A stretch of DNA of 64,000 nt from Trypanosoma brucei (Eukaryota), in assembly GCA_000002445.1 (NCBI GenBank), contig CH464491.1:64001-128000 (forward strand), in the 5' to 3' direction. Numbering within the stretch: the first letter of the stretch is position 1; every line of letters starts with the position of its first letter. Under the pieces are notes generated by a model that saw nothing but the letters and a program-made list of their open reading frames with translations, was not told the DNA's origin and did not search any database. Of the stretch, positions 45,986 through 64,000 are shown piece by piece. Position numbers and translations under genes: made by a program.

Positions 45986-46024
45986 GCTTGAAAATTAGAG
46001 CTGTTGTGCAACACAAACAGAGAC

Positions 46025-46095
46025 ACACACACACACACACAAAGGCAGAACCGTACACCTATAAGAAGAAAAAATAAGAAATACGTAAGTTTCGA
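46025..46095 (-). promoter_or_regulatory. Polypyrimidine / (TG)n tract upstream of the Era-GTPase gene; candidate splice-acceptor region
   Basis: + strand: acagagacacacacacacacacaaaggcagaaccgtacacctataagaagaaaaaataagaaatacg. It is pyrimidine-rich on the coding strand, about 40-110 nt upstream of the ATG at 45985. Confidence 0.45.
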
Positions 46096-47725
46096 AACCA
46101 ACCATTTGGAGAAATAAGACGATTACAAACACGTCAAGAACAGGGGGAAAAAAGGGAGGTAAAGCGCCTGGAGGAAACAAACCATTGAAGGGAAGGTGGT
46201 TCAGCATTTACCTCACTTAAACCGCAACCTCGTCGAACAGTAAGCACACGAACAAATGTGTGCATGTGAAAATAATAAACACGAACAACTTTCCCAATTG
46301 TGGCGAAATTTTATGATAATGATGGTAAGGAGGAAGAAAGGAAGAGGAGGAGAAGGGGGAATAAAAAAAAAATGCGACACAAAACTCCGCGCATCCGGCA
46401 GCTGCTGACATCAATCATAAAACCGGCAGAAATTGGTAACACACACGCACATGAGCCCACAGTAAAGCTGTGAACATCAGTGAGCTCATATACATTCTTT
46501 TTTATATATATATTTCTCTCGTAAGGAAGGAGGAGGGAAATTTACCGAAATCGCGTGAGACTACTGCACCCCTCCCTTCCGTGTTAACTATAAATGTAAG
46601 CAACTCGCCACTGCTTCTCCACAAACGGTAAATGAAACATGTGTTGTTTCTTGTTTCTGTTATTTTTCTGTTTTCTCTTTTTTTTTCTCTTGTGGCTGTT
46701 GTTGTTGTTTTTATTTTTTTTCCCCCTTTTGGTATGGCTGTTGTCTACAGATTTGATACGCCGCTGTACTCCCGTCCCAGTCGGCGTATGGCACCACGGC
46801 GAATAAATAGAAATACCATTGTACCAACTATTCCAATTAGCAGTAAATATGCAACTAAATACCGTTCCCGTGGGATCTCCGGTTGTTGTTGGCGTTGTTG
46901 TTTTTGTTGGAGTTGCTCATGAACCTTCGCGGCAATGGAGACATTTGTAATATTTTCCATATTCCACTACAAGTAAATATTATCAAAATAAATGGCACCA
47001 AAATACACCACTTACAAACTGGACACAAATTCGATGGAAAAATACTTGAAACAGTAAAAACGAAAACGAAAAAAAAAAGAACTACAATAATAAGAATAAT
47101 AATGATTCATTTATTTTTTGTTAATATTCGAAACAAGAAGAAAAAAAAAAGGAACAAAGTAGAGCTTGTTAATTTGTTTTCTTTTACAGCATCATGAGCA
47201 AATGATATGAATGATAAGCACAAAAAAAAAGATACCGACAAAATATAAACATGAGGGCAAGTTTTTAAAAAGAAATATGTGAATGTTACTGCAATAGGAT
47301 CTGGGGAAATTCGCACTGAATGGTGAGAAGTTTACCAAATGTTCAAAAACAAAAATAATTATATGGACACACAACCATCACAACTTTAAATGACCGGTTG
47401 AATACTCATTGGAACACGCCAAACTCTCAAAGAAATATTTCTCAACATTGCGCTCAAGCAAACGATGCAGTAGTAGCAAAAAGGCATGTAACTAAAATAG
47501 GCGGTAAGCAACGAGGAAAAGGAAAAGAAAAAAAAAGGAACGCAACAATAAAATATTCCTACAAATATACACAGTACCAATATATGAAGTGCGGTTCACA
47601 ACTACACCGAAGAGAAAATCGCGGTTGAGGTACAGAAGGATTTTAAAAAACAAAAAGAAAAAGAAAAACATTAGTGACTGTAACACGTCATTCCACACAC
47701 AATCTTTTTATATGCTTTCCTCCTC

Positions 47726-47795
47726 CTTTTCTTTTCTTTTCTTTCCTTTTCTTTTTCTTTTCTTTCCTTTCCTTTCCTTTTCTTTCCTTTTTCAT
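47726..47795. repeat. (TTTCY)n pentanucleotide-like pyrimidine microsatellite
   Basis: ttttcttttcttttctttccttttctttttcttttctttcctttcctttccttttctttcc. Confidence 0.85.
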
Positions 47796-47832
47796 ATATC
47801 ATATTATATTTTCTTTTTCTTTTTTTCCCCCT

Positions 47833-48306
47833 TTACGTTTCAGCACCACATCGGCGCAATTCCTCCTGCAGTACGCGACAACACTCCGCGAAAGGCCTCC
47901 CGCTTCCACAGCAGCATGACGGAGCATCCGGTGGTGAATTAATGAGATTTTGACGGAATGCCTCATCTCGAATGACGCGAATGGCCTCCGGAGTCCCAAT
48001 ATTTTTTAGCGCATTAAATTCAACGCATCGCCTCCGTAATGACGCAATTGTGCCGAATCGCTCGTGAATATTAGATTTAACGCCTTCTCGTGGTATTTTC
48101 CGTCGCTGCCTCCAACCCAAAGCTGCAAATATGGCGATAAAAGTAGTAACAATAACATACATACGCAATGAATCTTGATGAAGCCTACTGATAATAACTG
48201 CACCAAACCACCACACAATTAACCAAAGAATGCGCCTCACCCATCGCTTTTTGCTTTTTAACGAAGCCCGCTGCCTTCGCTCCGAAATATCTGAAGGTGG
48301 AGCCAT
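47833..48306 (-). CDS. Small membrane protein, 157 aa, with a C-terminal SEC-C-type metal-binding motif
   Basis: Basic N-terminus, then two hydrophobic segments (ILWLIVWWFGAVIISRL, VIVTTFIAIFAALGW), then CCCGSGRPFAECC, which matches the SEC-C motif (C.CGSGKK...CC). It is the only credible ORF inside an ~8.9-kb low-complexity region. Confidence 0.5.
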   Translation of the reverse strand: MAPPSDISERRQRASLKSKKRWVRRILWLIVWWFGAVIISRLHQDSLRMYVIVTTFIAIFAALGWRQRRKIPREGVKSNIHERFGTIASLRRRCVEFNALKNIGTPEAIRVIRDEAFRQNLINSPPDAPSCCCGSGRPFAECCRVLQEELRRCGAET

Positions 48307-49667
48307 TAGTTTCTAAAAGGAGGAGGAGGGGGGGACAATATGCGCAAATACGGAAGATGATACAACAAAATATATATATATATATATATATATTATTATT
48401 ATTATAAAGAGGATAGATCACAAGTGAATAAACGGGCGACGTAAACTGCATTCACAAATTGAACCATAAACTTTTTCTCACTCTTTTTGAGGTGACGATA
48501 TCATGGCGGCAAAAAAAAAAAAAGAGGAAAGCAAAATTAATAACACCGTCGCAGTTACTCACATGAGTTTTGTAATAGTTCCATAACATCAAAAATGCAC
48601 CTTCTAATAATTAGGATGAAAAATATAAAAAAAGGCTCATTCCTCCCCTCATCAGCTCTCAGTATTGACTTGAGCATCACTCCGTTCAGATTATAATACC
48701 ATATAATATAAAAGTGTAAGAGATAAGAGGAAGAAAAGAGGCTCCAGCACATTAACGGAAAAATAATACACACAAATCACTAAAGTGATGTTAATAACAA
48801 CCTCAAACTTCAATAAATAAATCAATATATATATATATATATATTAAATAAATAAATATGTATATTGATTTATTTATTTGATATAATGAAGTTTTATATG
48901 GTGTTTACCAGTACCCGAAAGGGAATACAACCGATCCAACGCACTTTTACAACATCATCAATGTAAGCCAAAAAGACCCGAAAGGATTTCTTTTGCTGCC
49001 ACTTTCAACACAACTCCATCATTACTCCTATCATTTATACCTAACATACGCACTGAATAGTAAAGAAGAGAGAAATGAAGAAAAATGAAGAAAAAGGAAA
49101 AAATAGAAAGAAAAATAGAAGAGTCATTAAACAATGATGAGTTATTGCAGTAAACATTCACAAGTCAAATCCGTATATTTAATGAAAGGAGGGGGGGCAG
49201 TCACACGCAAAGCTCCTGAAGGTTTCGCTGGGGGCAAGGCAACTTCATACAGCGGAGAAGACTTTTTTTAAAAGAGAAAAAAAGCGCCAGAACCATCAGC
49301 TACACACCAACAAAATAAAAAAAAAAAGGAGAGCGCCACTCCACTTTAACCATGCATATATTCACACAACACCCTCTTTTTCCTTGATTCTCACACTCTT
49401 TTTTTTCCCCCATTCTTCCTCTTCTTCTGTCCTTCCTTTTTTTTTAAAACCTTTCTCCCTTTTTCCACCATATAGAAATAAACGTGAACATTTAAATATG
49501 AATGTATACCTTTTTTTTTCACCTTTTGGGTACAGAGCTTTGACTACCACATGCAGAGCATACATATGTTAATCCCACAAAAATAATATAAATAGATACA
49601 GATATACTTTTTTATTTATATTTGTGCTTGCATGTGTGTGCGCGTGCGTGCGTGCTTGTGTTTGTTT

Positions 49668-49690
49668 GTTTGTTTGTTTATATCCATGTG
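49668..49690. repeat. (TTTG)5 preceded by (GTGC/GCGT)n
   Basis: gtgtgtgcgcgtgcgtgcgtgcttgtgtttgtttgtttgtttgttta. (TTTG)n recurs at 50087-50106, 50252-50274, 56986-57022 and 61897-61918. The complement (CAAA)n occurs on + at 51676-51700 and 60775-60800. Confidence 0.85.
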
Positions 49691-51825
49691 TATAACCATA
49701 TACAAATGTATTTTATATTATATCAATACGCTGTCTTTGCTAATTTTCTTTTTTGTTTTTTTTGGTTTTGTTTTCTTTTCTCCTTCTCTTGCTTTTGATA
49801 TTTTTCCCCTCTTTTTTTTTTGCTTTTTTCTTATTCCTTCTTCGTTGTTGCTTCCTCAATTTTACTTCTGCTTATAAATATATATATATATATATACTAC
49901 CCAACCATTCTTCCAGGTAATTCAGCGCTGATGAGTATCGACTGTGAAATACTATCTCTAACAATCCGTAACAAAAATAAAACTGAAAAAAAACATTTTT
50001 TACCAATCGTCGCTACATCCAAATAATATGAAAAGGGCTCAGCACATCTCATGTTCATTTGGGAAGCGAAGACTCGCGGCTCCTTTTGTTTGTTTGTTTG
50101 TTTCTTCTTTTCTTTCTTTCGTTTAAACTCTTCTTTTTCCACTTCGACGTTTTTTTTTCTTTTTTTCCTTTCCATTCTTCCCTTTTCGTTTCCCGCTCAC
50201 ATCCCTTTTTTTTCCCCCTCTTATTTTGAATTTTTGCTTCTTTTCCCTTCTTGTTTGTTTGTTTGTTTGTTTGCTCTTTTTTTTTCTTCTTTATTTTGAT
50301 CTGACGTATTCGTTTTCGCTAGTTATTCCTTTTGTTTTCATAAAACACAAACGCCGCTCTCTCTCTCTCTCTCTCACACAAATTTCTTTCTTTCATTGTT
50401 TTTTTTTTCCTCTTTTGATCCTTTTTTTTTTTCTGCTACTATTGTTTTTGACTTAGTCATGAGCCTCATTTTCCCTTCTGTATTTTTCCCCCCTTAGAAT
50501 CCGTTCCACTCATTTATATATATATATATAATTTATAAATATTTAAATTTATTGTGAAAACCTCCTTTACGCCGACGCATGCGCGCTCTCACTTGTCCCA
50601 CCCTTTTTTTTGGTTCTTTTTTTTTTCTTGTGTGTCTGTCTTTGCGTATATTTTGTTTGTTTCTTCTCTTTTCTGCATTTTCTGCATTTTCTTCATGCCA
50701 CATTTCCACTCCAATCCTTTCGCCACTTCCGTTCCCTTTCATTTCCTTCCCATCATTATAACATTACTGTTCATACATAATATTCCCCAAATACAATATA
50801 AAACAGCGGTACCACATTTAAAAATAAATTAAAAAATTAAAAAATAAAGTAAAGTTAAGGTAAATAAAAGACATAAAAATAAGAAAAATAAGAGAAAGAA
50901 AAGCGAACCGCTGAAAACACACACATATATGCGCGTAAAAAACAAAAAAACAAAAGAAACAAAAGGGGAAAAGGAACAAAACAGAACAGAACAGAACTGA
51001 TGAGGGAAAGAAATGAAAGAAATGGGCAAAACGAAGAGAAGAGGCACCGAAAGAGTAAAAGTCATCTTTTTCTGTCTTTTATTTTTTTTTTTCGTTTCAT
51101 GGCCACAAAACATGAAGCCATACACGCACGTATACTCATGCACACGGTAAAAGCAGATGATTCCGGTAATAATTTTTTTTTGTAAAAATAAAAAAGAAAC
51201 CCCCAAAAAAAAAAATACACAAAAAAATGGTAGGTAACAAAAAGCCGCTGGTATATAAACACACTATATGATGAATCGTAAATATTGTGTTACTTATCAA
51301 ATGTTCATGATCCTCTTCCCTCACACACACACACACACAAACATACCGTAAGAGAGAAGATCAGGGACACTTCCAAACACAATAAAACGTAAAAAAAAAA
51401 AAAGAACGAAAAATGAGAGGAAATTCAGGCGGGACGACGCGAGAACTTTTCGAAAGGGAGGAATCGGTAAAATAGTGCATAACAAAAGGAGAAAAGAAAA
51501 AGAGAAAAAGAAAAAAAAGAAAAAAAAAAGAGGAGAAAAAAGGGAAAAGAAAAAAGAAAAAAGGGAAGAGGGAAAGAAGACAACAACGGTCAACTGGAAC
51601 GAAGGAAACCCACATATGAAAATAACTGGGTGGTGAAAACAGCAAAAATAGCATATGAACAACAACAACAACAACAAGAACAAACAAACAAACAAACGAG
51701 CAAAAAAAAGTAGAAAAAACAAAAACAAAAACAACCAAAAACTGACCACCCAAATTTGCCTAACACACGACACAAGAAATAATAGCCAAAAAGTATGCGC
51801 GAAGAAATATGAAAGCGAGGGAGTA

Positions 51826-51878
51826 TAATTAAATGAAATGAAATGAATGAACGAATGAATGAATGAACGAATAGTGGG
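51826..51878. repeat. (GAATGAAT/GAACGAAT)n, an imperfect octamer/tetramer repeat
   Basis: aaatgaaatgaaatgaatgaacgaatgaatgaatgaacgaat. Confidence 0.85.
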
Positions 51879-52763
51879 CATGAGATTGCACTTTTCAGTA
51901 GTTCAAGCCACTCAGAGGTGTTGTGAATCAAAAAAAAAAAATGTAAAACATGGACAAAGAAAACAGAAAGGCAAACACACACACAAAACAAAAAGTAAAG
52001 GAGATTTGCTTCAACCACATATAATGTGATTTAGAAAGAACAAAACAACAAACAAAAGGGAGAAAGGTACGTTCATGATGCACACAAAAAAACAAAAAAA
52101 CAAATACGAATTTGTACCAAATAAAAACAAAAAAGAAGTTAAGAGACACATTTTGCGTACGGACGCACTCAAAAATAAAAATGGTGCAGCGGTACCCAAA
52201 AGAGAGGAGTAGGGAAAAGGGGGACATACATGATGCCAACTGTAATGGTGACAGGAACAACACACACTGAAACGAAAACAAAACAAAACAAAATACCAAA
52301 CGAGACATGCGCTTAACAATGCAGAGTATTTCGCTTCAGCTCGTTTCGCCTCGTTTCTCATTCCTTTTTTTTTCATTTTTTTCTTTCATTTTTTTTTTTG
52401 CGATGTACCTCTCCCAACTCATTGCATCCTCTCATGTCATCTTGTGTTTTTTTTCCGCATTCCTTTTTATGTTGTTATTTCATCATCATCATTTTCATCA
52501 CAATAATCTCCTCTCTTCGGCAGCACATGCACTTCCACAACTTAGTGTGTGTATGTTTCTCTATCCCCTCCTTTTTTTTTTTGAATTCTCTCTTCTTTTC
52601 ATTCTTTTAATTGTTCGTTCGTTTGTTCTCCTCTGCATTCACTCAACTGTCCTTTCCTCTCATATTCAACGGAATGTGACATGTGGAGAATTGACAGACA
52701 TTTCAACGCGTCAAGTAAATGCTCCAAATCATCATGAGGATCTTTCTTCAATCTCATCTTGTC

Positions 52764-52795
<32 letters not shown>

Positions 52796-54955
52796 AAATC
52801 AATATTACCCCTTCGTTCATCCTCTCTTTCTTCCCTATTTTCCTATTACTTTTTCATTTTTCTTTTTTCCCTTCTGTTTTTTTTTATTTTTAAAGAAAAG
52901 GTTTCCCTCGCACTTTTCTGTCCGCACACATCCACACACACAAAAACAAACACACATGCAAAATCTCTTTCTTTACTCTTTCCTTTTTTAAAAAAAAAAA
53001 ATTTCCCCTAATCTTTCCAAATATTTATTCTCACTACCGTCAGGCAACTCTTCTCACTTCCTCTTCTTGGGTTTCTCTCGTATGTGATGTTATGTATTAT
53101 TTTTTTTCTTTTTTTTTGGGGGGGGGAGGGGAAGTGGAGACGAACACTGCTGTAAAATGTGTCTGTTTGCATAAGATGCGGGTTCACCTTCATTCGGTGG
53201 GGAATAAAGAGGGAGAAAGAAAGAGAGAAGTAGTTAAAAATAAAAAAGAGAAAAAAAAAGAAATGAAATGTGTATGTAACTGACTTCAGGAATATGTTGC
53301 GGGTAAATAAATATTTATTTTTGGACTCCAACTACTTTCATATTGCCACCATAATATTCCCCACATTCACATCCATTACTCCGTCGTATCGCGTTGTACC
53401 CTTTTTTTTTTATTTATTACTTTAATCCTAATCTCAACCACCTCAACACCATCCTTTTCAATTGCATTCTTTTCTCCTCTCCTCTTTTTCTCCCCTTTTG
53501 CTATATATTTCTCACCTTTTCTTTTCTCTCTTTTTTTTTTATTGTTTTGTACAATCAACTCTGTATGTTGTCACAATACGCGCATGGCTCCCTATACAAA
53601 AGAAAAACACAAATACATGTACACACGAAAAAGCGGAGACACATACGTCTTTCTTTCCAACGACGCGCTCGACGTGGTTGTGCTTAGGTTTTCATATTAT
53701 AATTTATTATTTTTTTTTAATTTTTCACGCTCAAAAATTGATTTCATTATGTTCTCCTCATTCCTTCCACTTCCACTTCCACTTCTCCCACCTCTTTCTG
53801 TTTCTCTTTCTGTTTGTTTCCCTTCCTTTTTCTTTTTGCGTTTTTTTTTCCACCTTTCATTCGTTCTTTTCAACCGGGTCTGGCTCACTTCTTGCTGAAG
53901 GTTCCCTTCATTATCATATTATTATTATTATTATTGCTAGTGAGCTATTCTTTTCTTCCCTTCCCTTTCCTTTCCTTTTTTTGGATTTATTTATTTTTAT
54001 TTATCATATTTTTTTTTTCTGTTTCTTATTTTTTTTTTGCCCTCTCCACTATACTTTTATACTTTAACCCTTAAGTTAAATAAACAAATAAAACACACAT
54101 TGCATCTCGGTTATGATATCTTATAGCATCATGCCTTTACCTCAATAAGATATTTCCCTTTTGCCCTTTGTTTATCTGTAAATAAATAAATAAATATAAA
54201 TATGTATACACGCATACCAAAATGCATATACTTAAATACTTTTGTTGAAATTGTATCTCTTCCTCCCTGTTTCCTTCTCTCCCTCACATTTCCGCTATCA
54301 TTTGTTTCACCATCTTCATTTTATCCGTTGGCTAATTTTCCTGATTACCGTTTCTTCTCTTTGGCTTTGCCAACTCCTCCCTCTTTTTTTCTTTTTTTCT
54401 TTTTTTTCTTATTCTCCCATCTCTTCCTCCCTTCTCTCATTTGTGTCAAATTACCCCTTCCTAATATTTTCTTTTGGTTTTTGTTTCATTTCATTTTCCT
54501 ACTCGTTTACCCTTTATGAACCTTTCCGTTTCGGTACACATCACTTATCCCTTCTTTTTCTTATTATTATTATTATTATTCTTATTATTATTATTATTTC
54601 TTTTCTTTTTCCCTCCACCCATCACCCCTCTTCCTCATCCAATTCGATCCAATCCAACATTCTTTCACATCTGACATCAGAGTGCATTCTGTACCGTAAC
54701 GAAAGAAAAAAAATACACACAGAAATATATATATATATATATATATATACTCATTCTTTGATGTTTTTTTTTTCTTTTCGTGTCTGAAAAGAGAGAAGAA
54801 AAAGAAACAATAACTATAACAATAACAATAACAAGTAACAACAAAAACAATAGTAATAATAATAATACGGCCAAAGAGTAAAGAGTAAAGAGTAAAGTCA
54901 CACCTGCCCACAAATATGCATCTCACATATCACATAAAAGTCACTTTTTACCCCT

Positions 54956-55615
54956 TCATTTACGGGCAGGCCGACCGCTTTGTTGCCCAGTTTGACCCGG
55001 TGCCTGCTGCGGAGGTGGTGGTGGGGGAAGTTGAGTTTGTTGAGGCGGTGCATGCATCATATACTGCTGATACATTGCCATCATTTGTTGTTGTGCATAT
55101 GGATTAGCAACGGGAGGATAAGCACCATAGCCACCATACCCGCCATAACCGCCATACGCATTGAAACCATTGTTCATGTTACGCCCACGTTGATGACCGC
55201 TAGCAGCCAGCGCTACCTTCAGTCGTTTGTTGAGGATTACAAAACCATTCAATGATGCAATCGCCTGTTGAGCACTCGAGGCGCTCTGAAACTTCACGAA
55301 ACCATAACCGCGACTTTGACGAGTCTCCCGATCACACACAATTTTAACCGACTCAATTGCCCCGAAGCGCTCAAACAACTGCCGGAGTTGCACCTCATCA
55401 ACAGTAGTTGGAATATAATTTACCATAAGATTGCGTAGAAAATCGGGTTCTTGATTCACTTGACCCAACGGTTGCGGAGGAGGTGCCTGTTGTTGTTGCT
55501 GCTGCTGCTGTTGTTGCTGTTGAGCGGGTTGTTGTTGTTGTTGCTGCAACTCCGACTGCGATTGCCCGGTGGTGTTGTAGGGGTCACATGGAGAAGCCAG
55601 TGGAACCTGAGACAT
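54956..55615 (-). CDS. UBP1: Single-RRM RNA-binding protein of the kinetoplastid UBP1/UBP2 family (the longer paralog, 219 aa), with a Gln-rich N-terminus and Gly/Tyr plus Gln/Pro-rich C-terminus
   Basis: RRM: RNLMVNYIPTTVDEVQLRQLFERFGAIESVKIVCDRETRQSRGYGFVKFQSASSAQQAIASLNGFVILNKRLKV, with RNP1 RGYGFVKF. The N-terminus has a poly-Q run (QQQQQQPAQQQQQQQQQQQQ). The C-terminus has a GGYGGYGGYGAYPP box. Assigning this copy to UBP1 rather than UBP2 is a guess. Confidence 0.8.
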   Translation of the reverse strand: MSQVPLASPCDPYNTTGQSQSELQQQQQQPAQQQQQQQQQQQQAPPPQPLGQVNQEPDFLRNLMVNYIPTTVDEVQLRQLFERFGAIESVKIVCDRETRQSRGYGFVKFQSASSAQQAIASLNGFVILNKRLKVALAASGHQRGRNMNNGFNAYGGYGGYGGYGAYPPVANPYAQQQMMAMYQQYMMHAPPQQTQLPPPPPPQQAPGQTGQQSGRPARK

Positions 55616-55639
55616 TTGTTTTGCGACTGCACCGTCAAA

Positions 55640-55720
55640 AAAATCAAGAAGAAAGTAAAAACAAAAATATAAAAAAGAAAAGAAAAAGAAAAAAAAGACC
55701 TTAATCTTTATGTACCGAGA
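55640..55720 (-). promoter_or_regulatory. Polypyrimidine tract upstream of the UBP1-like gene; candidate splice-acceptor region
   Basis: + strand: caaaaaaatcaagaagaaagtaaaaacaaaaatataaaaaagaaaagaaaaagaaaaaaaagacc. This is nearly pure purine on +, so pure pyrimidine on the coding strand. Confidence 0.5.
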
Positions 55721-57907
55721 TGCGACGGATTATTTGGAGAAAGAAGGGGAAAAAAAGAATGAAAATTGCTTTGATTAAAAGATAAACAAACGGACAGGAA
55801 GTGAAGATTGAAGTGGAAACATCGGAAGTATCCCGCAGCATTATTTGAAATAGGAGGATGGTAAGAAAAAAAAAGTGGAAGTTAGAGTAGGGAGTGAATG
55901 TGGATTATATGAAAAAGAAAGATGATTACCAAACAAAAATATTAATGGGGAGAGGAGGAGGAATTCAAAAAAAAAATTAAATGAAGAAGGAAAGAAGGGA
56001 AAGGAGCGAATGCAAAGTTAAAGGATTAAAATCATAGAAAATAATCATTGCAAGATTCCCTTCTGAGTTAAGCCCCACTTAACATTTCTGCTGTCGTTGC
56101 AGCAAATTGTTGTCCTCCTCTCTCTCTCCTAACTCTTTTTTTTTGTTGTTGTTGTTACAACTGTTTTTTTTTCTTTTTATTATTTCCTCTCTTTCCTCAT
56201 CCTTTTCCCCCTTCTTGTCTGTTTATCTATACTTTTGTTCACCTATATATATATATATATATATATTTGTATTTTTGGTTTTTGTTTTGTCCCCTTTGTT
56301 TTGGAGGGATGTTTTTCTCTTTTTTTTTTTTCTTCTTTCGTTTTAATCACCTAATTATTCTCCTTTTTTTTTCTATTTAATTTTCCTCCTTTCAGAAGAA
56401 AAAAAGGAGCACCTACTCCCTTTCGCTTTCATCTTTATATTTATGTTATTTCATCCCTCTGTTGTTGTTTTTTTTCTTCTTCGTATTATTTTTCCCCCGT
56501 TACTTCTGCTAAAACTATACCATCAAACTCCCACCGCCTTGTTTTACAACACCACTGCATCGCAGCGAAAGGAAGGGGAGAAAAAAAACAAAACAAAAAA
56601 AAACACACACACACATAACACAAGAAAGAAGGAAGGAAGGAAGGGCACGCACACAGAAAGATTTAAAAAAACAAAACAAAATAAAATAAAGAAGAAAAAG
56701 AAAAAGAAAAAGAAAAAAAAGAGCGGGGAGAACAATAACAATAATAATCATCATAACAAAAGTTACCCAAGATGAGATGTTACGTCACACACGGGGTCAA
56801 AGAAACTCCTCCTCCTCCACCTCCCCTTTCCTCCTCTTGTCATAAAAAACACACAACATTTACACCTAATCCCATTTTTAACTTCCATTCATAATTCTCA
56901 TCCCATCATAACTCGTCAACTCATCCACATAAATTTTCTCCCGTTCCTCCTTTTTTCTTTTTCTTTTTGTTTTTTTTGTCACTTTGTTTGTTTGCTTGTT
57001 TGTTTGTTTTTGTTTTTGTTTGACGTTTCCCCCACACCCACACATACATACACATACACAATTGCATATCATATATGTAATATATATTATGTAAAACGAC
57101 ATACGTGTGCGTTACCTTTCTCTCGCCCTCTGTGTCCCTCTTCGTATCACAACTTGCCGGTGTTTCTTTTAATTTTTATTTTTTATTTTCTTTTATTCAT
57201 CTTTTTCTTCTGTTTGATGGTTTGCTTTCAAGTCCTCACCTCATTCTTTCCTTCTTTTTCTTTCCCATTTGTCAACATTTCGCTTTATTTCATTCTTGCT
57301 CTTTTTCTTTTTTTTTTTATATTTCTTTACTTTGCTTATTATCCTCAAACTGATGTAACTGACGTTGCTACCTTTTGTGGTAAATGCAGTAAATTTATTT
57401 AAGGCAACGCATAGGAAACAATAGAAAAAAAAAAGAAAAAAAGAAAAGAAAGAAAGAAGCGGGAACACGAAGAAAAATGAAAAAGCAACGAACTGACACC
57501 ATCGCAAAACAACAAACACTTTCGCGTGTATCACTTTTTTGTTTTATTGTTTTCTTTTTTCTTTCGCTTAAATTGCAAAAACTCCAACACTCGTGCATTC
57601 ATGTTTCCCTTCACTTCTCTTCTTTTTCACTTTTCAATTTGTTGCTGTTGTCGTTGTTTATTTATTTTTTTTTTTAATCTCTGCTGACAATTCCCCCTCC
57701 TTCTATTGGTGTTTCACCATTTTATTTAATATCCTCTTATAAAAAGCGCCAATTTTCATTTTTTTTTTTAAATTTATTTCCCCCTCCCCTCCCCTCCCCT
57801 CAAGTCCACCGTAGTGAAGTCACTTGAAAGTAACAAAATAAAATATACCATCATAAAAAGTATTTTATTTTATTTCTTTGTTTCGTATCCACATATCCAA
57901 TAATAAG

Positions 57908-57911
<4 letters not shown>

Positions 57912-57944
<33 letters not shown>
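57912..57944. repeat. (AT)16 microsatellite
   Basis: atatatatatatatatatatatatatatatat; further (TA)n tracts occur at 4873-4891, 48371-48392, 49877-49896, 52765-52791, 54725-54748, 56245-56266, 60302-60320 and 63781-63802. Confidence 0.9.
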
Positions 57945-57950
<6 letters not shown>

Positions 57951-60900
57951 ATACGTATATAACTACATATAAATATATGAATACAGGCACGTGAGGGAAA
58001 AACAAGAAACACAAACACAAACTGTCACACAAGAAAAAAAAAAACGACAAAAAGTTTACCGCAACCGCACGATGCCACAGCGGCAATAATAACAACCAAA
58101 TAGAGATGGAAAAATATGGGAGGAAAAATAAAAAGAAAAAAGAAGAAAAGAAGAAAAGAAGTACCGACGAACAAAAACAAAAAACACAAACATAAACACA
58201 CAAAGGAAGAGAAGTGTACGAGCCCAACTAAGGCAATGAAAAATTGGAAGAAAATAAAGGAGGTACGAGTTAGAAATGAAACACAAACACACAAACAAAG
58301 TCATTTCATTTCTTTTTTTATGATTCTTTTTTTTTAAAAAAAACCCATATACAAATACAAACACAATAACAATAACAACAGCATCGGTAGCGGCAATGAA
58401 TTTCCTTTTTTTTTCTTCATCTTCCTCTCATCCTCTTTTTCCTCTCACTTATATTTATATCAGTAATTTGCATCCTCTCAAACATAAGCCACTAATCCTC
58501 TCTTTACTCTGCCAGTGAAGGCATTGAGAGGACGTGAGAAAAGAAAAAAAGATGAAAAAGGAAAAGGAAAAGGAAGAGGAAGAGGAAGAGGAGGTAAGGA
58601 CAAAAAAGGAAAAGAAAAAAAGGAAAAAAAAGAAAAAAAATTTCAAAAAAACAACAATAACGACAATAACAAATACTCAAAAAAAAAAACACAAAAAGAA
58701 AAGAAAAGAAAAGAAAATCCGCTGAACAGAAGAAAAGGTATGGACTGCGGTGATATAATATTGACGGTGGTGTCAAGAAGGTCTCCTTCCCATGAGATTA
58801 ATTTCACGCGATAAAAAAAAGAAAAAGAGGAGAGGAATGAAAAAAAAAACAGAAAAGACGCAATCTTTTTTTTTCCTTTCGTATTTTTCTTTTTTTTTTT
58901 CTGTCACGTTTTGCTTTGTTGTTGCGGTTTCATTTTCTCAAGCATTTGAGGGACGTAACATCAAAGGTGCTGTTGTTTTTTTTTTCTTTTGCGCATGCGC
59001 GGAGTTCGTAGACATTTAAAAAAAAATTTTATATATATAAAACATACATATTATAAATATATAAATGTAAATATATGTATAGAATCAACGGATGGATTAA
59101 TTGAAACTGAAGAAAAAAAAAAGACCAACGTGTACACAGGTGAGCGACAACAATAATAATAATAATAATAACCGACACACACACACACACACAAAGGGAT
59201 TAAAAGAAAGGTAAAAGAAGGCGAAACAGCGGTGGAATATAGAAGTTTTTTTCTTTTTTCTTTTCAAACAAAAAAAATAAAAGATAAAGAAAAGAAAAGG
59301 AAAAGAAAGGAAAGTAAAGTAAAGTAAAATTGTGTCCTACGCCCTGTTCACATTAAAGCAGCACGCGACTGGAAACAAAAAATAAGGGGATTCAACACCA
59401 CAAACGCAAAGCATCATTTGGTGGCAAAACGAAACACAAAAAGAAATTTCATTTCTTTCGACTATTAAATCGCTCACCCCCTTTTTCCTTTTTTTCTTTT
59501 TCTTTTTCTTTCTTTTTTGCCTTTTCCTTTCACTTTTTTTTTTAAAAAAAAAGAAGAAAAAAAGGAACTTCTTTTTTATTTGGTTTTAGTCTCACTTACC
59601 TCCATCCCGCTCGGTTCATTTAACCTTCTCTTTTAATCCCCTGAAACTTCACCTCCTCTCTCTTTTCTTTTTCTTTTCATTTTCCTCCTCTTAAACTCTC
59701 GCATGCATTTTTTCTTTCTTTTTTTTTTTTAAACCCTCCCCCTTCCCCTCTTCACTTCAGCCGTCTAATCAGGAGGCTATACAAGAGGGAAAGGAGTATT
59801 TTTATTTTTTTTTAAAAAAAAAGAAAAAAGAAAAGAAAAGAAAAGCGAGAACCACTCGTTACAAAGGCGAGAAACAAAGCGGAACCAAATAGAGAGAGGA
59901 AAAAAAAAGAAAAAGGAAGAAAGTAAACAACAAACAACAACAAGTCAAATATTAACGAATAAGCGCACAACCAGGTAAGCGCACACATATATACATATAT
60001 ACATATATTTAATATTCACTCATATATATATATATATGTATACGTACACGTGGGCTACGGAGCCACAACAACAATAATGATGGTGATGATAATGATGATG
60101 ATGATAACAACAATAACAATAATAGTGATAATAGTAACAGCAACGGAGTTCAAAGCAGAATCAAAAGAAAAAACAAAAAAGAAGAAGCGGGAAACAAACA
60201 GTAGACAAAAACAAACAATTTTTTTCCTTATTTTCCTAATTACAAAACATTAGCAGTGCAGATCGGTGACATCCACCACAACAGGTTGAAGAAACTAGGA
60301 GATATATATATATATATATAAAGAGGTAGTCTGCTACGTAATTACCCACACGTGGAGAGACATAAAAATATAAAATCAATGGGGAAACATAGCCAGACAA
60401 ATCATAATAACAATAACAATAACAATAGTAATAGTAATAACCGAAACTCTTTGAATCCAATGCACACACCGCACCCTTTTCTTATATCGTCTTATCATGC
60501 GCAAAAAACTCACATGACAATTTAGCAGCGGATACGAAAAGAAATGTAACGAAATGTTTAAGAAAAAAGGGGGTGCGCGTACTGAACCAGTGACAAAAAG
60601 GAGCGAGGGGTATAAAAGGTAGCAAAAGAAAAAAAAAAGGAGGAAAACAAACAAAAAAAAGAGAAGTTCGGCGCCTGCATTTAACGCAACGTAGCGCGAG
60701 AACGAATAGGAAGAAAAACAAACCGACAGATGTCGGCACCATACAGGGCCAGGCAAAGCCGCGCAGCCAGAAGAAACAAACAAACAAACAAACAACAACA
60801 AAGAGAAGAGAAGAGAATAGGAAAGAAAAAAAAAGAAAAAAGCCACAGTCCATAACAAACAAAGGTAAGACCATGTCACAATCCAGAAGAAAACCAAAAC

Positions 60901-61853
60901 AGATATAATAATAATAATAATGATGATGATGAAAAATAAGAGAAAAGGAGGAAAATCGTCGGCACGGCGACGCTCGTCTGTCATCATTTCGTGTGTTTTC
61001 TAGGCAATAGAGAGGATCTTCTTTTTTTTTCCTTTTTGAAATAAAATGAAATGAATAAAAGGGTCAGCGCAACGCGAAGCTAATCAAACAATCACAAAAT
61101 ATCAAATAAGCGGCTAGGCGGGGTTTCTTTTTTTTTTTTCATCACATATTCGTATCGTCCCCTTTTTTTTTCTCTCTTTTCGCGATATTCAAACAGTTTT
61201 CAATTCCATTGGCGGGTTCCAACCGGGTATTGGGGGGACGACAGTCATTTACTTTGTTGTTGTTGTTGTTTCTTTTGGTAAATGGAAAAATGAAGAAGGA
61301 ACTGAGCGGATCAAATTTAAAAAAAGGAAGGAAGGTAGAACAAAAAAAAAAACAAGCGCCGTCCAACTTCACTGCTACGCAACAACGACATCAACGTTTC
61401 AGAAAACCGAATTTCAATGACAATAATAACATTTAGCAAATGCTGGTCGTTTATTTGAAATACTACTCCTCCCATTCTTTTCCTTTTAGCTTCTCCTCTG
61501 GTTGTTCTTATGTTGTGGCGTTCCCCAAAATCTGAATAAAAATACACCTCTCTTTTTTTTTTTTCTTGGTCTTTCCAATTTTATTCGGATTTCAACTTTG
61601 CTTTGTGTTTGCTTCTGGGTTTTGGCTTCTTCACCAGTTTCTTTCATTCTCCCCCATTTGAGATTCCATTGCAGACATTAAATCCCCACCCTTTTTCCTT
61701 TGTTGTTGTTGTTGTTAATAATTTTCCTCTCTTACTCCACTTGACTCTCTGTGTTACTCTTTTGCTTCTCTTTTTTTTTTCTCTCTCTTTCCCCTCGCGG
61801 AACACTTTCTTTTACCTTTGAGTCTTTCCTGTTTTGGGACCATGTTTTACAGT

Positions 61854-61854
<1 letters not shown>

Positions 61855-61896
<42 letters not shown>
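61855..61896. repeat. (AT)21 microsatellite
   Basis: atatatatatatatatatatatatatatatatatatatatat, read directly. Confidence 0.9.
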
Positions 61897-61899
<3 letters not shown>

Positions 61900-62639
61900 T
61901 TGTTTGTGTTTGTTTGTTTATTTTTTTCTTTAATCTTAACTGTCCACACATACTTAAATACACCAGAATGATTCAGTCTGCTCGACGTTAAACGAGCAAA
62001 TAGAAGATAACTCAGATGTCAAATATTTACTTACAAAAATATACGTTTGTGGGACGCGGAATTTTGTTATTGTTTCTGTCGTTGATGCCTCTGTCTTCTT
62101 TTTTTTTTCTTCGGTTTCGCCTCCTTTCTTTTTATTTTATTTTATTTTTCTTTTTAAGCCCTCTCCTCTATTCCCTCTCTATCCAACACCTTTCTGTCAC
62201 TATTTGCTCCACTTCATTCCTCTTCTCTTTGTGTTGTTCCTCTTTATTCGTTTTCTCCGACTCATGCTTCATTTTCTTTGTTTAAACCCTCTCGTATTAG
62301 TGGAAAAAAAAAATTCTTTGCATGGTGTGATTTCGACCTTTGTGACATTTCACACTTACCTCTGTTTTTTTTTCCTTTCCTTTCCTTTCTTTTAATGTTG
62401 GTTTGTTTTGTTTTGTTCTTTCGTCTCTTTTTCTCCTCCCCTCCATGGTTTTCTTTTTTTTTTCTTTTTTTAACTTCGTCATGATTCATCCATTCATTTG
62501 GGTCTAGTGGGGAGGGAGAGCCGCTTCTCCAACTATAAGGCTCATATTTTGTACACAAATATAAATGTATGTGTGACAACAAAATAAAGTAATAACAGTA
62601 ATAATGGTAATAATAATAATAATAATAAGCGAGAAGCAA

Positions 62640-62760
62640 GTAAAACCCAACCCCAACAAAACATAACATAACATAACACAACATAACATGACATGGCACA
62701 ATATGACATGATATGATATGTGATATGACATGACATGACATGGCATGGCACAAAACACAC
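62640..62760. repeat. Compound (ACATA)n/(CATGA)n/(ATATG)n microsatellite block
   Basis: aacataacataacataacacaacataacatgacatggcacaatatgacatgatatgatatgtgatatgacatgacatgacatggcatggcaca. Confidence 0.85.
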
Positions 62761-63189
62761 ATACAAACATACACACAAACAAACACAGACAACAGCTCTG
62801 TTTCAACGCCTCGCTTGTATGAAAAGAGCTCCCACTCCGCTCCGCCCCCCCCCCTCTTTTATTTTCTTCTTCATTTTATTTTTGCTTCAAAAATAAAAGG
62901 GAAACTTTCCTTCCCATTTCCTCCCTCTTGTGCCCTTACTTCTTTACATACACACTCCGACAGCCTCCTGGGGCATTTAAAGTTCATATTCCTTTTCTTT
63001 TCCCTTCTTTTTTTTTCTTTTTTTTTTGCATTTTCTGTCATATCACCTTTAAAATAATTAAAATTACTTATCCTTTAAAAAAAAAACCTTCCATTCTCTC
63101 TCACACCCCTCCATCTGCCCCACCGACCCTTGAAGGGAAGCTGACGGGTTGAGAACCCCCCAAAAAAAAAAAAAGAAAAAGAAAAAACA

Positions 63190-63717
63190 TTACTGACGGG
63201 ATATCGGAGGCATCGGGGAAGCGGCCATCATATAATGTTGTTGCATTGCCATCATTTGTTGTTGTGCATATGGATTAGCAACGGGAGGATAAGCACCATA
63301 GCCACCATACCCGCCATAACCGCCATACGCATTGAAACCATTGTTCATGTTACGCCCACGTTGATGACCGCTAGCAGCCAGCGCTACCTTCAGTCGTTTG
63401 TTGAGGATTACAAAACCATTCAATGATGCAATCGCCTGTTGAGCACTCGAGGCGCTCTGAAACTTCACGAAACCATAACCGCGACTTTGACGAGTCTCCC
63501 GATCACACACAATTTTAACCGACTCAATTGGGCCGAAGCGCTCAAACAACTGCCGGAGTTGCACCTCATCAACAGTAGTTGGAATATAATTTACCATAAG
63601 ATTGCGTAGCAAATCGAGATCTTGATTCATTGCTCCCATAGAAGGAGGAGGTGCCTGTTGTTGCTGCTGCTGAGGAGGCTGTTGTTGCGTTGTGTAATAC
63701 TGCGGTTGCTGGGACAT
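63190..63717 (-). CDS. UBP2: Single-RRM RNA-binding protein, UBP1/UBP2 family (the shorter tandem paralog, 175 aa)
   Basis: Its RRM and Gly/Tyr box are encoded by DNA more than 99% identical to the copy at 54956-55615. The N-terminus is distinct (MSQQPQYYTTQQQPPQQQQQQAPPPS) and the C-terminus is shorter (...AASPMPPISRQ). Confidence 0.8.
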   Translation of the reverse strand: MSQQPQYYTTQQQPPQQQQQQAPPPSMGAMNQDLDLLRNLMVNYIPTTVDEVQLRQLFERFGPIESVKIVCDRETRQSRGYGFVKFQSASSAQQAIASLNGFVILNKRLKVALAASGHQRGRNMNNGFNAYGGYGGYGGYGAYPPVANPYAQQQMMAMQQHYMMAASPMPPISRQ

Positions 63718-64000
63718 TACGTAAATTACAGAACCTTATTATAAGTTATGATATAATACAAAAGTAAGATAGATAAATAAATATATATATATATATATAT
63801 ATGTATAGATATATATATATGTACTAGCTACGTTTTGCCAAGCTTTCTTTCCTTATTTTTCCTTCTAACCCTTTTTTTTGTCTTTGGTCTCTTTGCTTAC
63901 TTCCTATGTTCTAAAAAAAAAAAAAAAGACCTTTTCGATGATGTTTTTTTTTTTTTAATTTAATACCTTGTTAGCTTTCTGTAACTGTCCTAATTATTTC

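What the first reader, a model, noticed from the sequence alone, without database searches (positions are those of the whole stretch)
54956..63717. Tandem UBP1/UBP2-like RRM paralogs with a ~365-bp block of near-perfect identity: a gene-conversion signature
The core region at 55074-55438 is identical to 63246-63610 except for two adjacent substitutions. Those read caattgCCccgaag in the first copy and caattgGGccgaag in the second, giving FGAIES versus FGPIES in the protein. The block covers the RRM, the Gly/Tyr box and part of the Q-rich linker. In contrast, the 5' coding ends, the 3' coding ends and all flanking DNA are unrelated between the two copies. Such sharp identity boundaries inside paralogs 8.2 kb apart indicate ongoing concerted evolution of the RNA-binding core, while the low-complexity N- and C-termini evolve freely.
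Basis: seen in the sequence. Interest (0 to 1): 0.5.

Follow-up and report, generated by a model that had tools for sequence, protein, structure and literature searches.

The report
Gene conversion between trypanosome UBP1/UBP2

Summary
Window 55073-55438 equals 63244-63609 (366 nt, offset 8171) apart from one adjacent GG/CC pair.

The genes are TbUBP1 (54956-55615, minus strand) and TbUBP2 (63190-63717, minus strand) on T. brucei chromosome 11. Both are known single-RRM U-rich RNA-binding proteins.

The gene-conversion reading is supported by tests across seven further genomes:
- In a 249-nt RRM core, paralogues within a species differ at 0-9 sites (dS 0-0.13). Orthologues between species differ at 20-79 sites, mostly with saturated dS.
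- Core trees group by species (100% bootstrap). The N-termini group by orthologue (94-99%).
- Synteny is conserved, and UTRs and intergenic DNA are unrelated.
- Tract boundaries differ between lineages.
- T. melophagium UBP1 carries a UBP2-type linker that its sister species T. theileri lacks, which shows UBP2-to-UBP1 transfer.
- One synonymous SNP is shared by both paralogues within each T. brucei lineage, which suggests recent conversion.

The adjacent coding ends are diverged but still alignable (about 470 bp at 94%). The termini are conserved by orthologue rather than evolving freely.

The near-identity of the RRMs and gene conversion in trypanosome tandem genes are both published, so this is a clean new example of a known kind.

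The parts
54956..55615 (-). TbUBP1 coding sequence (219 aa plus stop; Tb927.11.500), the downstream gene of the pair
   Evidence: ORF. RRM_1 at aa 63-133. Published UBP1_F/UBP1_R primers match both ends. 99% identical to T. b. gambiense UBP1. PDB 1U6F TcUBP1, E=5e-55.
63190..63717 (-). TbUBP2 coding sequence (175 aa plus stop; Tb927.11.510), the upstream gene of the pair in the same polycistron
   Evidence: ORF. RRM_1 at aa 40-110. Exact match to XP_828143.1/Q387K0_TRYB2 and to the T. b. gambiense protein.
55073..55438 (-). Near-identical conversion tract, UBP1 copy (aa L60-M181: RRM, Gly/Tyr box, PPVANPYAQQQMMAM)
   Evidence: 364/366 identical to 63244-63609.
63244..63609 (-). Near-identical conversion tract, UBP2 copy (aa L37-M158)
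55360..55361 (-). The only difference inside the tract: an adjacent dinucleotide. The plus strand reads CC here and GG at 63531-63532. In coding sense this is GGG-GCA (Gly-Ala86, UBP1) versus GGC-CCA (Gly-Pro63, UBP2).
   Evidence: The same paralogue-specific state is present in T. b. gambiense. Pro is the state in both paralogues of almost all other species, so Ala is derived in T. brucei UBP1.
55271..55271 (-). Synonymous site (Ala115, GCT), with its partner at 63442 in UBP2. It is T in both paralogues of the window strain and C in both paralogues of T. b. gambiense.
   Evidence: tract position 168. A lineage-specific SNP shared by both paralogues implies a conversion within T. brucei.
55439..55522 (-). 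Diverged but alignable 5' coding flank of the tract in UBP1 (Q-rich/APPP region). Its partner is 63610-63693 in UBP2.
   Evidence: blastn 471 nt at 94% including the core. 67% identity in the 5' aligned part, with indels.
55055..55072 (-). Short diverged 3' coding flank still in register (14/18 identical). Beyond it the UBP1-specific and UBP2-specific tails begin.
55616..63189 (-). 7.6-kb low-complexity spacer between the two CDS. It presumably holds the UBP2 3' UTR, intergenic DNA and the UBP1 5' UTR. It is not part of the repeat.
   Evidence: No convincing ORF, no Rfam family, and no similarity between the flanks of the two genes apart from low-complexity matches. The spacing is the same in T. 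b. gambiense.

Best explanation
The window is T. brucei chromosome 11 and carries UBP2 followed about 8.2 kb downstream by UBP1, in the same polycistronic unit. The two genes arose by a duplication older than the common ancestor of the sampled Trypanosoma species.

Since then, the central part of the coding sequence (the RRM, and in T. brucei also the Gly/Tyr box up to QQQMMAM) has been repeatedly homogenised by non-reciprocal intrachromosomal (ectopic) gene conversion. A break or gap in one copy is repaired by homologous recombination using the paralogue as template. The N-terminal and C-terminal parts, the UTRs and the intergenic DNA are not exchanged and keep their orthologue-specific identity.

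Shown here:
- the tract itself;
- synonymous-site identity within species against saturation between species;
- the opposing phylogenetic signals of core and termini;
- lineage-specific tract ends;
- one polarised UBP2-to-UBP1 event;
- one SNP shared by both paralogues within T. brucei lineages.

Inferred, not shown:
- the molecular route (RAD51-type synthesis-dependent strand annealing; trypanosomatids rely on homologous recombination and microhomology joining for break repair, from general knowledge);
- that tract ends are set by loss of homology at indel-rich Gln-codon repeats, by selection against replacing the paralogue-specific tails, or by both.
For: - Tract: 364/366 identical, sharply bounded. 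Differences cluster non-randomly: 0/20,000 permutations reach the observed run for all sites and for third positions in T. brucei, and at most 1/20,000 in the five other species tested.
- In the 249-nt RRM core, paralogues within a species differ at 0-9 nt (dS 0-0.13). Orthologues differ at 20-79 nt (dS 0.31-0.40 for the sister species T. melophagium/T. theileri, 0.9 or more or saturated otherwise).
- NJ bootstrap: species clades 100% and UBP1/UBP2 clades 0% for the core. The UBP1|UBP2 split is 94-99% for the first 14 aa, and 98% for termini without T. vivax.
- Conserved synteny (ABC transporter, RBP3-like RRM gene, hypothetical gene, UBP2, UBP1) in T. b. gambiense, T. melophagium, T. theileri, T. 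rangeli and T. cruzi.
- Homology is confined to the CDS in all species.
- Tract ends differ by lineage: 366, 420, 436, 251, 276, 281 and 480 nt.
- Polarity: the T. melophagium UBP1 linker is 90% identical to T. theileri UBP2 and 69% to T. theileri UBP1, while the tails keep orthology.
- Recency: tract position 168 is T/T in the window strain and C/C in T. b. gambiense. Paralogue dS (0.02) is about equal to between-lineage dS (0.02-0.03).
- Independent assemblies agree.
- Partial, biased gene conversion is documented in 21 of 47 T. brucei tandem arrays (PMC1855330).
Against: - No conversion event was observed directly.
- The evidence for recent events within T. brucei rests on a single shared SNP.
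- The GG/CC difference has survived in both T. brucei lineages although it sits in the middle of the tract. This requires short patchy conversions, selection for Ala86 in UBP1, or very few events since it arose.
- There is no GC3 enrichment in the tract (0.41 versus 0.37-0.53 in the flanks), so the GC-biased signature sometimes linked to conversion is absent.
- DNA of the closest outgroup, T. congolense, could not be obtained.
Confidence: 0.9

Rival explanations
1. Purifying selection alone: the RRM core is identical because every change in it, including synonymous ones, is deleterious (protein function, codon usage or an RNA element).
For: The RRM protein sequence is very conserved across trypanosomatids (many invariant columns). 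dN between species is low (0.02-0.13). The proteins are abundant (PMC6597758).
Against: Synonymous sites are saturated between species, so they are not constrained. Yet they are identical between paralogues in each species. Species-specific amino-acid and synonymous changes are shared by both paralogues.
Confidence: 0.02
2. Independent recent duplications: each lineage duplicated a single UBP gene recently, and the termini diverged quickly afterwards.
For: The paralogues are near-identical in the core in every species. In L. major the two copies are identical through the stop codon and both have UBP2-type ends.
Against: The same gene order and neighbours occur in five Trypanosoma genomes. The UBP1-type and UBP2-type N- and C-termini are each conserved across the genus. 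UTRs and intergenic DNA show no homology in any species. The tails follow orthology between sister species (82% and 94% versus 53-55%).
Confidence: 0.03
3. Homogenisation by cycles of unequal crossing-over or single-strand annealing (deletion to a chimeric single gene, followed by re-duplication) rather than non-crossover gene conversion.
For: Direct repeats 8 kb apart can recombine to give UBP2-N/UBP1-C chimeras. Such a chimeric transcript was reported after a Cas9 cut in T. cruzi UBP1 (PMC11139272). T. grayi contigs show chimeric arrangements.
Against: Crossover cycles would also homogenise or delete the spacer and the termini. Instead the spacer is unique and its length is the same in the window strain and T. 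b. gambiense, about 8.1 kb start to start. Both orthologue-specific termini persist in all lineages. The T. grayi chimeras are reciprocal and lie on short contigs, so misassembly is likely.
Confidence: 0.05
4. Assembly artefact: one RRM sequence was collapsed or copied into both genes by the assembler.
For: Near-identical repeats of about 370 bp can confuse short-read assemblers. The T. grayi contigs look chimeric.
Against: The same tract and the same GG/CC difference occur in the independent T. b. gambiense DAL972 chromosome assembly. The UBP2 protein is identical in TREU927 and DAL972. The pattern recurs in seven other genomes. Published protein work reports 99% identical RRMs in T. cruzi (PMC2637893).
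Confidence: 0.01

Closest known systems
TcUBP1/TcUBP2 (T. cruzi) and TbUBP1/TbUBP2 (T. brucei) U-rich RNA-binding proteins
   Same: These are the very genes in the window. They are single-RRM proteins with Gln-rich N-termini and Gly/Gln-rich C-termini, and UBP2 lies upstream of UBP1 in one polycistron. The RRMs are reported as 99% identical in T. cruzi (PMC2637893; PMC11139272). TbUBP1 and TbUBP2 are 73% identical overall (PMC4967103).
   Different: The papers I could read describe protein-level similarity and function. None of them attributes it to gene conversion or maps tract boundaries across species. The primary T. brucei paper (Hartmann 2007) was not available to me.
Partial, biased gene conversion in T. 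brucei tandem gene arrays (Jackson 2007, PMC1855330). The classic example is PGK-B/PGK-C gene conversion (Le Blancq et al. 1988, cited from memory).
   Same: Tandem paralogues in a polycistron cluster by species, with chimaeric copies and mostly non-reciprocal exchanges.
   Different: Jackson links loss of shared UTR/intergenic repeat structure with retention of orthology. Here the UTRs and spacer are completely unrelated and the genes are 8 kb apart, yet the CDS core is still homogenised. This gives a within-gene mosaic: a concerted core with orthologous termini. The UBP pair is not among the arrays named in the text I searched.
Domain-restricted concerted evolution of old duplicates in other eukaryotes, for example human fetal globin HBG1/HBG2 conversion tracts (from memory)
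   Same: A discrete conversion tract with sharp edges lies inside older, diverged duplicates. The edges lie next to simple-sequence DNA.
   Different: Different organism and gene family. Here the pattern is maintained in parallel in at least seven trypanosomatid lineages, with lineage-specific boundaries.

Membership tests
Kinetoplastid UBP1/UBP2 single-RRM proteins | A single RRM_1 domain in a small protein of about 160-230 aa | tested here: met
   PF00076 at aa 63-133 (E=1.9e-21) and aa 40-110 (E=2.5e-22).
Kinetoplastid UBP1/UBP2 single-RRM proteins | Closest solved structure is the TcUBP1 RRM | tested here: met
   1U6F_A, E=5.3e-55, far ahead of PABP/Hu/Sxl.
Kinetoplastid UBP1/UBP2 single-RRM proteins | Sequence identity or orthology to named TbUBP1 (Tb927.11.500) and TbUBP2 | tested here: met
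   UBP2 is 100% identical to XP_828143.1. UBP1 is 99% identical to T. b. gambiense UBP1. Published UBP1 primers match. The locus is syntenic in five genomes.
Kinetoplastid UBP1/UBP2 single-RRM proteins | Binding to U-rich RNA; homo- and heterodimerisation | not testable with these tools
   Taken from the literature only (PMC6597758).
Interlocus gene conversion / concerted evolution | Paralogues are more similar within a species than orthologues are between species, at synonymous sites | tested here: met
   dS is 0-0.13 within species versus 0.31 to saturated between species. Species clades have 100% bootstrap.
Interlocus gene conversion / concerted evolution | The duplication predates the speciations (orthologue-specific regions outside the tract; conserved synteny) | tested here: met
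   The N-terminal UBP1|UBP2 split has 94-99% bootstrap. Tails follow orthology between sister species. Synteny is conserved. Flanks are unrelated.
Interlocus gene conversion / concerted evolution | Differences are non-randomly clustered, leaving an unexpectedly long identical fragment (Sawyer-type test) | tested here: met
   0/20,000 permutations for all sites in all six species tested. For third positions alone, 0/20,000 in five species and 1/20,000 in T. melophagium.
Interlocus gene conversion / concerted evolution | Identifiable donor and recipient for at least one event | tested here: met
   The T. melophagium UBP1 linker is 90% identical to T. theileri UBP2 versus 69% to T. theileri UBP1.
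Interlocus gene conversion / concerted evolution | Events still occurring within the species | tested here: inconclusive
   One synonymous SNP is shared by both paralogues within each of two T. brucei lineages. A single site only.
Interlocus gene conversion / concerted evolution | GC-biased signature (accessory, not defining) | tested here: not met
   GC3 is 0.41 in the tract versus 0.37-0.53 in the flanks.
Interlocus gene conversion / concerted evolution | Direct observation of template-copying during break repair | not testable with these tools
   Needs an experiment. The T. cruzi Cas9 chimera (PMC11139272) is suggestive, but its authors interpreted it as an RNA rearrangement.

The most novel reading that the evidence does not exclude
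UBP1 and UBP2 form a long-lived within-gene mosaic, with three linked claims.

(i) The RNA-binding module is forced to evolve as one unit in both proteins by recurrent conversion, predominantly UBP2-to-UBP1. Examples are the linker in T. melophagium, the start of the tail in T. vivax, and possibly the whole gene in Leishmania.

(ii) Selection, not merely loss of homology, protects the orthologue-specific N- and C-terminal effector tails and a few paralogue-specific residues (Ala86 in T. brucei UBP1; Cys/Ala and Val/Leu in T. cruzi).

(iii) If so, the pair is a natural system in which RNA specificity is shared and function diverges only through the low-complexity tails. The locus would also be a ready-made reporter of ectopic recombination tract length in trypanosomatids. 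This reading would reinterpret the UBP2/UBP1 chimera seen after Cas9 cutting in T. cruzi as DNA-level repair from the paralogue.
Probability: 0.35. Interest if true: 0.5.

Novelty: new member of a known kind. Interest (0 to 1): 0.3.

Why it matters
Practical consequences:
- Within the 366-nt tract the two essential, abundant RNA-binding protein genes cannot be told apart. This affects RNAi triggers, CRISPR guides, anti-RRM antibodies, short-read mapping and variant calling.
- For example, the drug-selection mutation R131L assigned to UBP1 in PMC4967103 lies inside the identical tract.
- Short-read assemblies can join the two genes wrongly. The T. grayi contigs are a likely case.

Evolutionary consequences:
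- The RNA-binding specificity of the two proteins is coupled within each species, so functional divergence must reside in the termini.
- The pair shows that gene conversion in trypanosomes can persist on a coding core of about 250-480 bp even when all surrounding repeat structure has been lost.

None of this changes current understanding of gene conversion or of UBP proteins.

Tried and rejected
The true offset is 8171.
- T. congolense DNA, the closest outgroup, is not on record. Only its proteins could be used.
- The primary TbUBP1/2 paper (Hartmann 2007, PMC2168414) is not held. I therefore could not check whether nucleotide identity or conversion is mentioned there.
- The Bodo saltans contig starts at the gene and the neighbouring 177-aa ORF is unrelated, so it says nothing about the age of the duplication.
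- GC3 as a biased-gene-conversion signature: no enrichment.
- Rfam scan of the whole window: no family.
- A C-tail-only tree including T. vivax gave 0% support for the orthologue split, because the T. vivax UBP1 tail is itself partly converted. Without T. vivax, support is 67% for the tail alone and 98% with the N-terminus.
- Plus-strand ORFs overlapping the two genes (63-91 aa) and low-complexity ORFs in the spacer were treated as spurious.
- Flanks of the T. grayi contigs had no informative matches in other species, so real rearrangement versus misassembly could not be settled.

Full report
**1. The observation**

I read both regions and compared them in register. At offset 8171, window 55073-55438 matches 63244-63609 over 366 nt, with two adjacent mismatches at 55360-55361. 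blastn gives 99.45% over 366 nt and finds only these two copies in the window.

The quoted strings and the FGAIES/FGPIES translations are correct. On the coding (minus) strand the difference is GGG-GCA versus GGC-CCA, which is one synonymous and one Ala/Pro change.

The block is embedded in a longer, diverged homology: 55055-55522 versus 63226-63693, 471 nt at 94%. The aligned 5' coding flank is 67% identical and the 3' flank 55%, both with indels. So the adjacent coding ends are diverged, not unrelated. The non-coding flanks are unrelated apart from low-complexity matches.

Shuffling the differences never reproduced the longest identical run in 20,000 trials, for all sites or for third positions only.

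**2. What the genes are**

Both ORFs lie on the minus strand: 54956-55615 (219 aa) and 63190-63717 (175 aa). Each has one RRM_1 domain.

The 175-aa protein is identical to T. brucei TREU927 XP_828143.1/Q387K0 and to the T. b. gambiense DAL972 protein. The 219-aa protein is 99% identical to T. b. gambiense UBP1. The UBP1_F and UBP1_R primers published for Tb927.11.500 match its two ends (PMC4967103). The best solved-structure match is the T. cruzi UBP1 RRM, 1U6F.

The window aligns at about 95%, gaps included, with T. b. gambiense chromosome 11 over 20 kb. All but one of the 16 ORFs of 220 aa or more in the window are on the minus strand, so this is one polycistronic unit. The upstream gene is therefore TbUBP2 and the downstream gene TbUBP1. 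They are separated by 7.6 kb of low-complexity DNA with no convincing ORF and no Rfam family.

**3. Test of concerted evolution**

I fetched the orthologous loci of T. b. gambiense, T. melophagium, T. theileri, T. rangeli, T. cruzi (two strains), T. vivax and L. major. A second copy in T. vivax was found by tblastn.

In T. b. gambiense and the stercorarian-type genomes (T. melophagium, T. theileri, T. rangeli, T. cruzi) the order is ABC transporter, RBP3-like RRM gene, hypothetical gene, UBP2, UBP1.

Every species has its own near-identical UBP1/UBP2 tract:

| Species | Tract length (nt) | Differences | Note |
|---|---|---|---|
| T. brucei (window) | 366 | 2 | |
| T. b. gambiense | 366 | 3 | |
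| T. vivax | 420 | 1 | |
| T. melophagium | 436 | 1 | |
| T. theileri | 251 | 1 | plus a second identical block |
| T. rangeli | 276 | 0 | plus a second, near-identical block |
| T. cruzi | 281 | 5-9 | plus a second identical block |
| L. major | 480 | 0 | runs to the stop codon |

Homology never extends beyond the CDS, apart from about 15 nt in L. major.

In a gap-free 249-nt RRM core, paralogues within a species differ at 0-9 sites (dS 0-0.13). Orthologues differ at 20-79 sites. Their dS is 0.31-0.40 for the sister pair T. melophagium/T. theileri, and 0.9 or more, or saturated, for the rest.

NJ bootstrapping gives 100% for every species clade and 0% for UBP1 or UBP2 clades in the core. The termini carry the opposite signal. 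The first 14 residues split UBP1 from UBP2 with 94% support (99% without T. vivax). N-terminus plus tail gives 98% without T. vivax. The UBP1-type (MSQ[VI]PL.S..DPY ... RPARK) and UBP2-type (MSQQ.QYY ... PRQ) ends are visible across the genus.

This combination is the standard signature of interlocus gene conversion acting on an old duplication. It excludes three alternatives:
- purifying selection alone, because synonymous sites are free to change between species;
- independent recent duplications, because of the conserved synteny, the orthologous termini and the unrelated UTRs;
- an assembly artefact, because independent assemblies agree and the pattern occurs in seven other genomes.

**4. 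Boundaries, direction and recency**

At the protein level T. congolense shares both T. brucei boundaries (just before LRNLMVNY, and after QQQMMAM). T. vivax shares the 5' one, but its tract runs further 3', so its UBP1 tail begins with UBP2-type sequence.

T. cruzi, T. rangeli and T. theileri keep an orthologue-specific Gly-rich linker between two identical blocks. T. melophagium does not.

Between the sisters T. melophagium and T. theileri, the T. melophagium UBP1 linker is 90% identical to T. theileri UBP2 but only 69% to T. theileri UBP1. The tails keep orthology: 82% and 94%, versus 53-55% across paralogues. This polarises at least one event as UBP2 to UBP1, after that speciation.

Within T. 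brucei there are four variable sites in the tract:
- GG/CC at positions 78-79 is paralogue-specific in both the window strain and T. b. gambiense.
- One site is private to T. b. gambiense UBP1.
- Position 168 (window 55271 and 63442; Ala GCT versus GCC) is T in both paralogues of the window strain and C in both paralogues of T. b. gambiense.

The last pattern requires a conversion within T. brucei, or an unlikely parallel mutation. That conversion did not erase the GG/CC difference 90 nt away. This suggests short patches or selection for Ala86, but it rests on one site.

Paralogue dS in T. brucei (0.02) is similar to the between-lineage dS (0.02-0.03).

Pro is the state in both paralogues of nearly all other species, so Ala86 is derived. 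Two independent substitutions would fall adjacent with probability of about 2/366, so a single dinucleotide mutation is more likely (inference).

GC3 is not elevated in the tract.

**5. Mechanism**

Shown: the non-reciprocal, recurrent, lineage-specific copying of a 250-480-nt coding core between two direct repeats 3-10 kb apart.

Inferred from general knowledge of trypanosomatid DNA repair (homologous recombination and microhomology-mediated joining dominate; efficiency depends on homology length and is limited by mismatches): a break in one RRM is repaired by strand invasion of the paralogue and synthesis-dependent annealing. Heteroduplex extension then stops where homology collapses, in the indel-rich Gln-codon runs. 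Selection against loss of the paralogue-specific tails may reinforce the edges. Which of the two dominates is open.

**6. Relation to the literature**

The near-identity of the two RRMs is published (99% in T. cruzi, PMC2637893). So are the gene order and co-transcription (PMC11139272), the 73% global identity in T. brucei (PMC4967103) and the proteins' functions (PMC3070815, PMC6597758).

Partial, biased gene conversion was found in 21 of 47 T. brucei tandem arrays (PMC1855330). That study links loss of shared UTR and spacer structure with retention of orthology. The UBP pair departs from this, because its core is still homogenised without any shared flanks.

I found no paper combining UBP1, UBP2 and concerted evolution or a relevant gene-conversion statement. 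The primary T. brucei paper was not available.

A 2024 study reported a chimeric UBP2(1-17)/UBP1(delta 1-31) transcript after a Cas9 cut in T. cruzi UBP1 and proposed an RNA rearrangement. The junction coincides with the 5' edge of the T. cruzi identity tract that I mapped (UBP1 aa 31, UBP2 aa 17). DNA-level recombination between the paralogues, or template switching during RT-PCR, would explain it equally well (inference).

**7. Verdict**

The feature is a clear, well-bounded instance of domain-restricted concerted evolution in two already characterised genes. It is a new, nicely documented member of a known kind, of modest interest to specialists. Its main value is practical, because the paralogues are ambiguous to molecular and mapping tools within the tract, and as a potential natural reporter of ectopic recombination.

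Noticed in passing
L010:9213-9836 and L011:1704-2252 (T. grayi): The two T. grayi genes are reciprocal chimeras. The gene in the UBP2 position has a UBP2-type N-terminus but a UBP1-type linker and tail. A 2.3-kb contig carries a UBP1-type N-terminus with a UBP2-type linker and tail. This is probably a misassembly across the identical RRM tract in a fragmented short-read assembly, but a real exchange is not excluded.
   Followed up: partly
L006/L007 (T. cruzi) UBP1 aa 31 / UBP2 aa 17; literature PMC11139272: The junction of the chimeric UBP2(1-17)/UBP1(32-) mRNA reported after Cas9 cutting of TcUBP1 coincides with the 5' edge of the T. cruzi identity tract. The authors proposed an RNA rearrangement. 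Recombination between the paralogues or RT template switching would fit equally well.
   Followed up: partly
window 55360-55361 / 63531-63532; L006 and L007 tract positions 130-131: In both T. brucei (GG/CC, Ala/Pro) and T. cruzi (TG/GC, Cys/Ala), a paralogue-specific amino-acid difference inside the tract is an adjacent dinucleotide change. It is stable across the two strains or subspecies compared, while nearby synonymous differences vary between strains.
   Followed up: partly
window 55486-55530 (UBP1 Gln run) and about 54980-54990 (tail): UBP1 of the window strain differs from T. b. gambiense UBP1 by one extra Gln codon in the N-terminal poly-Q run and by an Ala/Ser change in the C-terminal tail. 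The exact 219-aa protein is not in the 15-billion-protein collection, so the window is probably neither TREU927 nor DAL972.
   Followed up: partly
window 45986-54955 and 55616-63189: The two small RBP genes sit in about 18 kb that is otherwise free of convincing ORFs. This DNA is A/T-rich and rich in polypurine/polypyrimidine runs, with about 9 kb downstream of UBP1 and 7.6 kb between the genes. Very long UTRs or intergenic regions are implied. The only ORF of 220 aa or more there (52307-53011, plus strand) is on the non-transcribed strand and is likely spurious.
   Followed up: no
window 54725-54750, 57906-57944, 61856-61897, 63785-63825: (TA)n microsatellites recur, including one just downstream of the UBP1 stop codon and one just upstream of the UBP2 start codon. 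Some form long imperfect inverted-repeat pairs.
   Followed up: no
L009:34-552 and 10001-10549 (L. major): The Leishmania pair is 99.8% identical over 501 nt, running through the stop codon and about 15 nt beyond. Both copies have UBP2-type N- and C-termini. Either UBP1 was almost wholly overwritten or the duplication is independent.
   Followed up: partly
window 55223-55225 (UBP1 Arg131 codon), inside the tract: The R131L mutation reported as homozygous in UBP1 of two drug-selected T. b. rhodesiense lines (PMC4967103) lies within the 366-nt stretch that is identical in UBP2. Read-mapping alone could not assign it to one paralogue, and spread by conversion would be possible.
   Followed up: no
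L008:10001-10684 (T. vivax UBP1): The T. vivax UBP1 tail starts with UBP2-type sequence (HQQYMMAASPMPPVQ) and then continues with a UBP1-type end (…GGRVARK). The conversion tract therefore reaches almost to the UBP2 stop codon in this lineage.
   Followed up: yes
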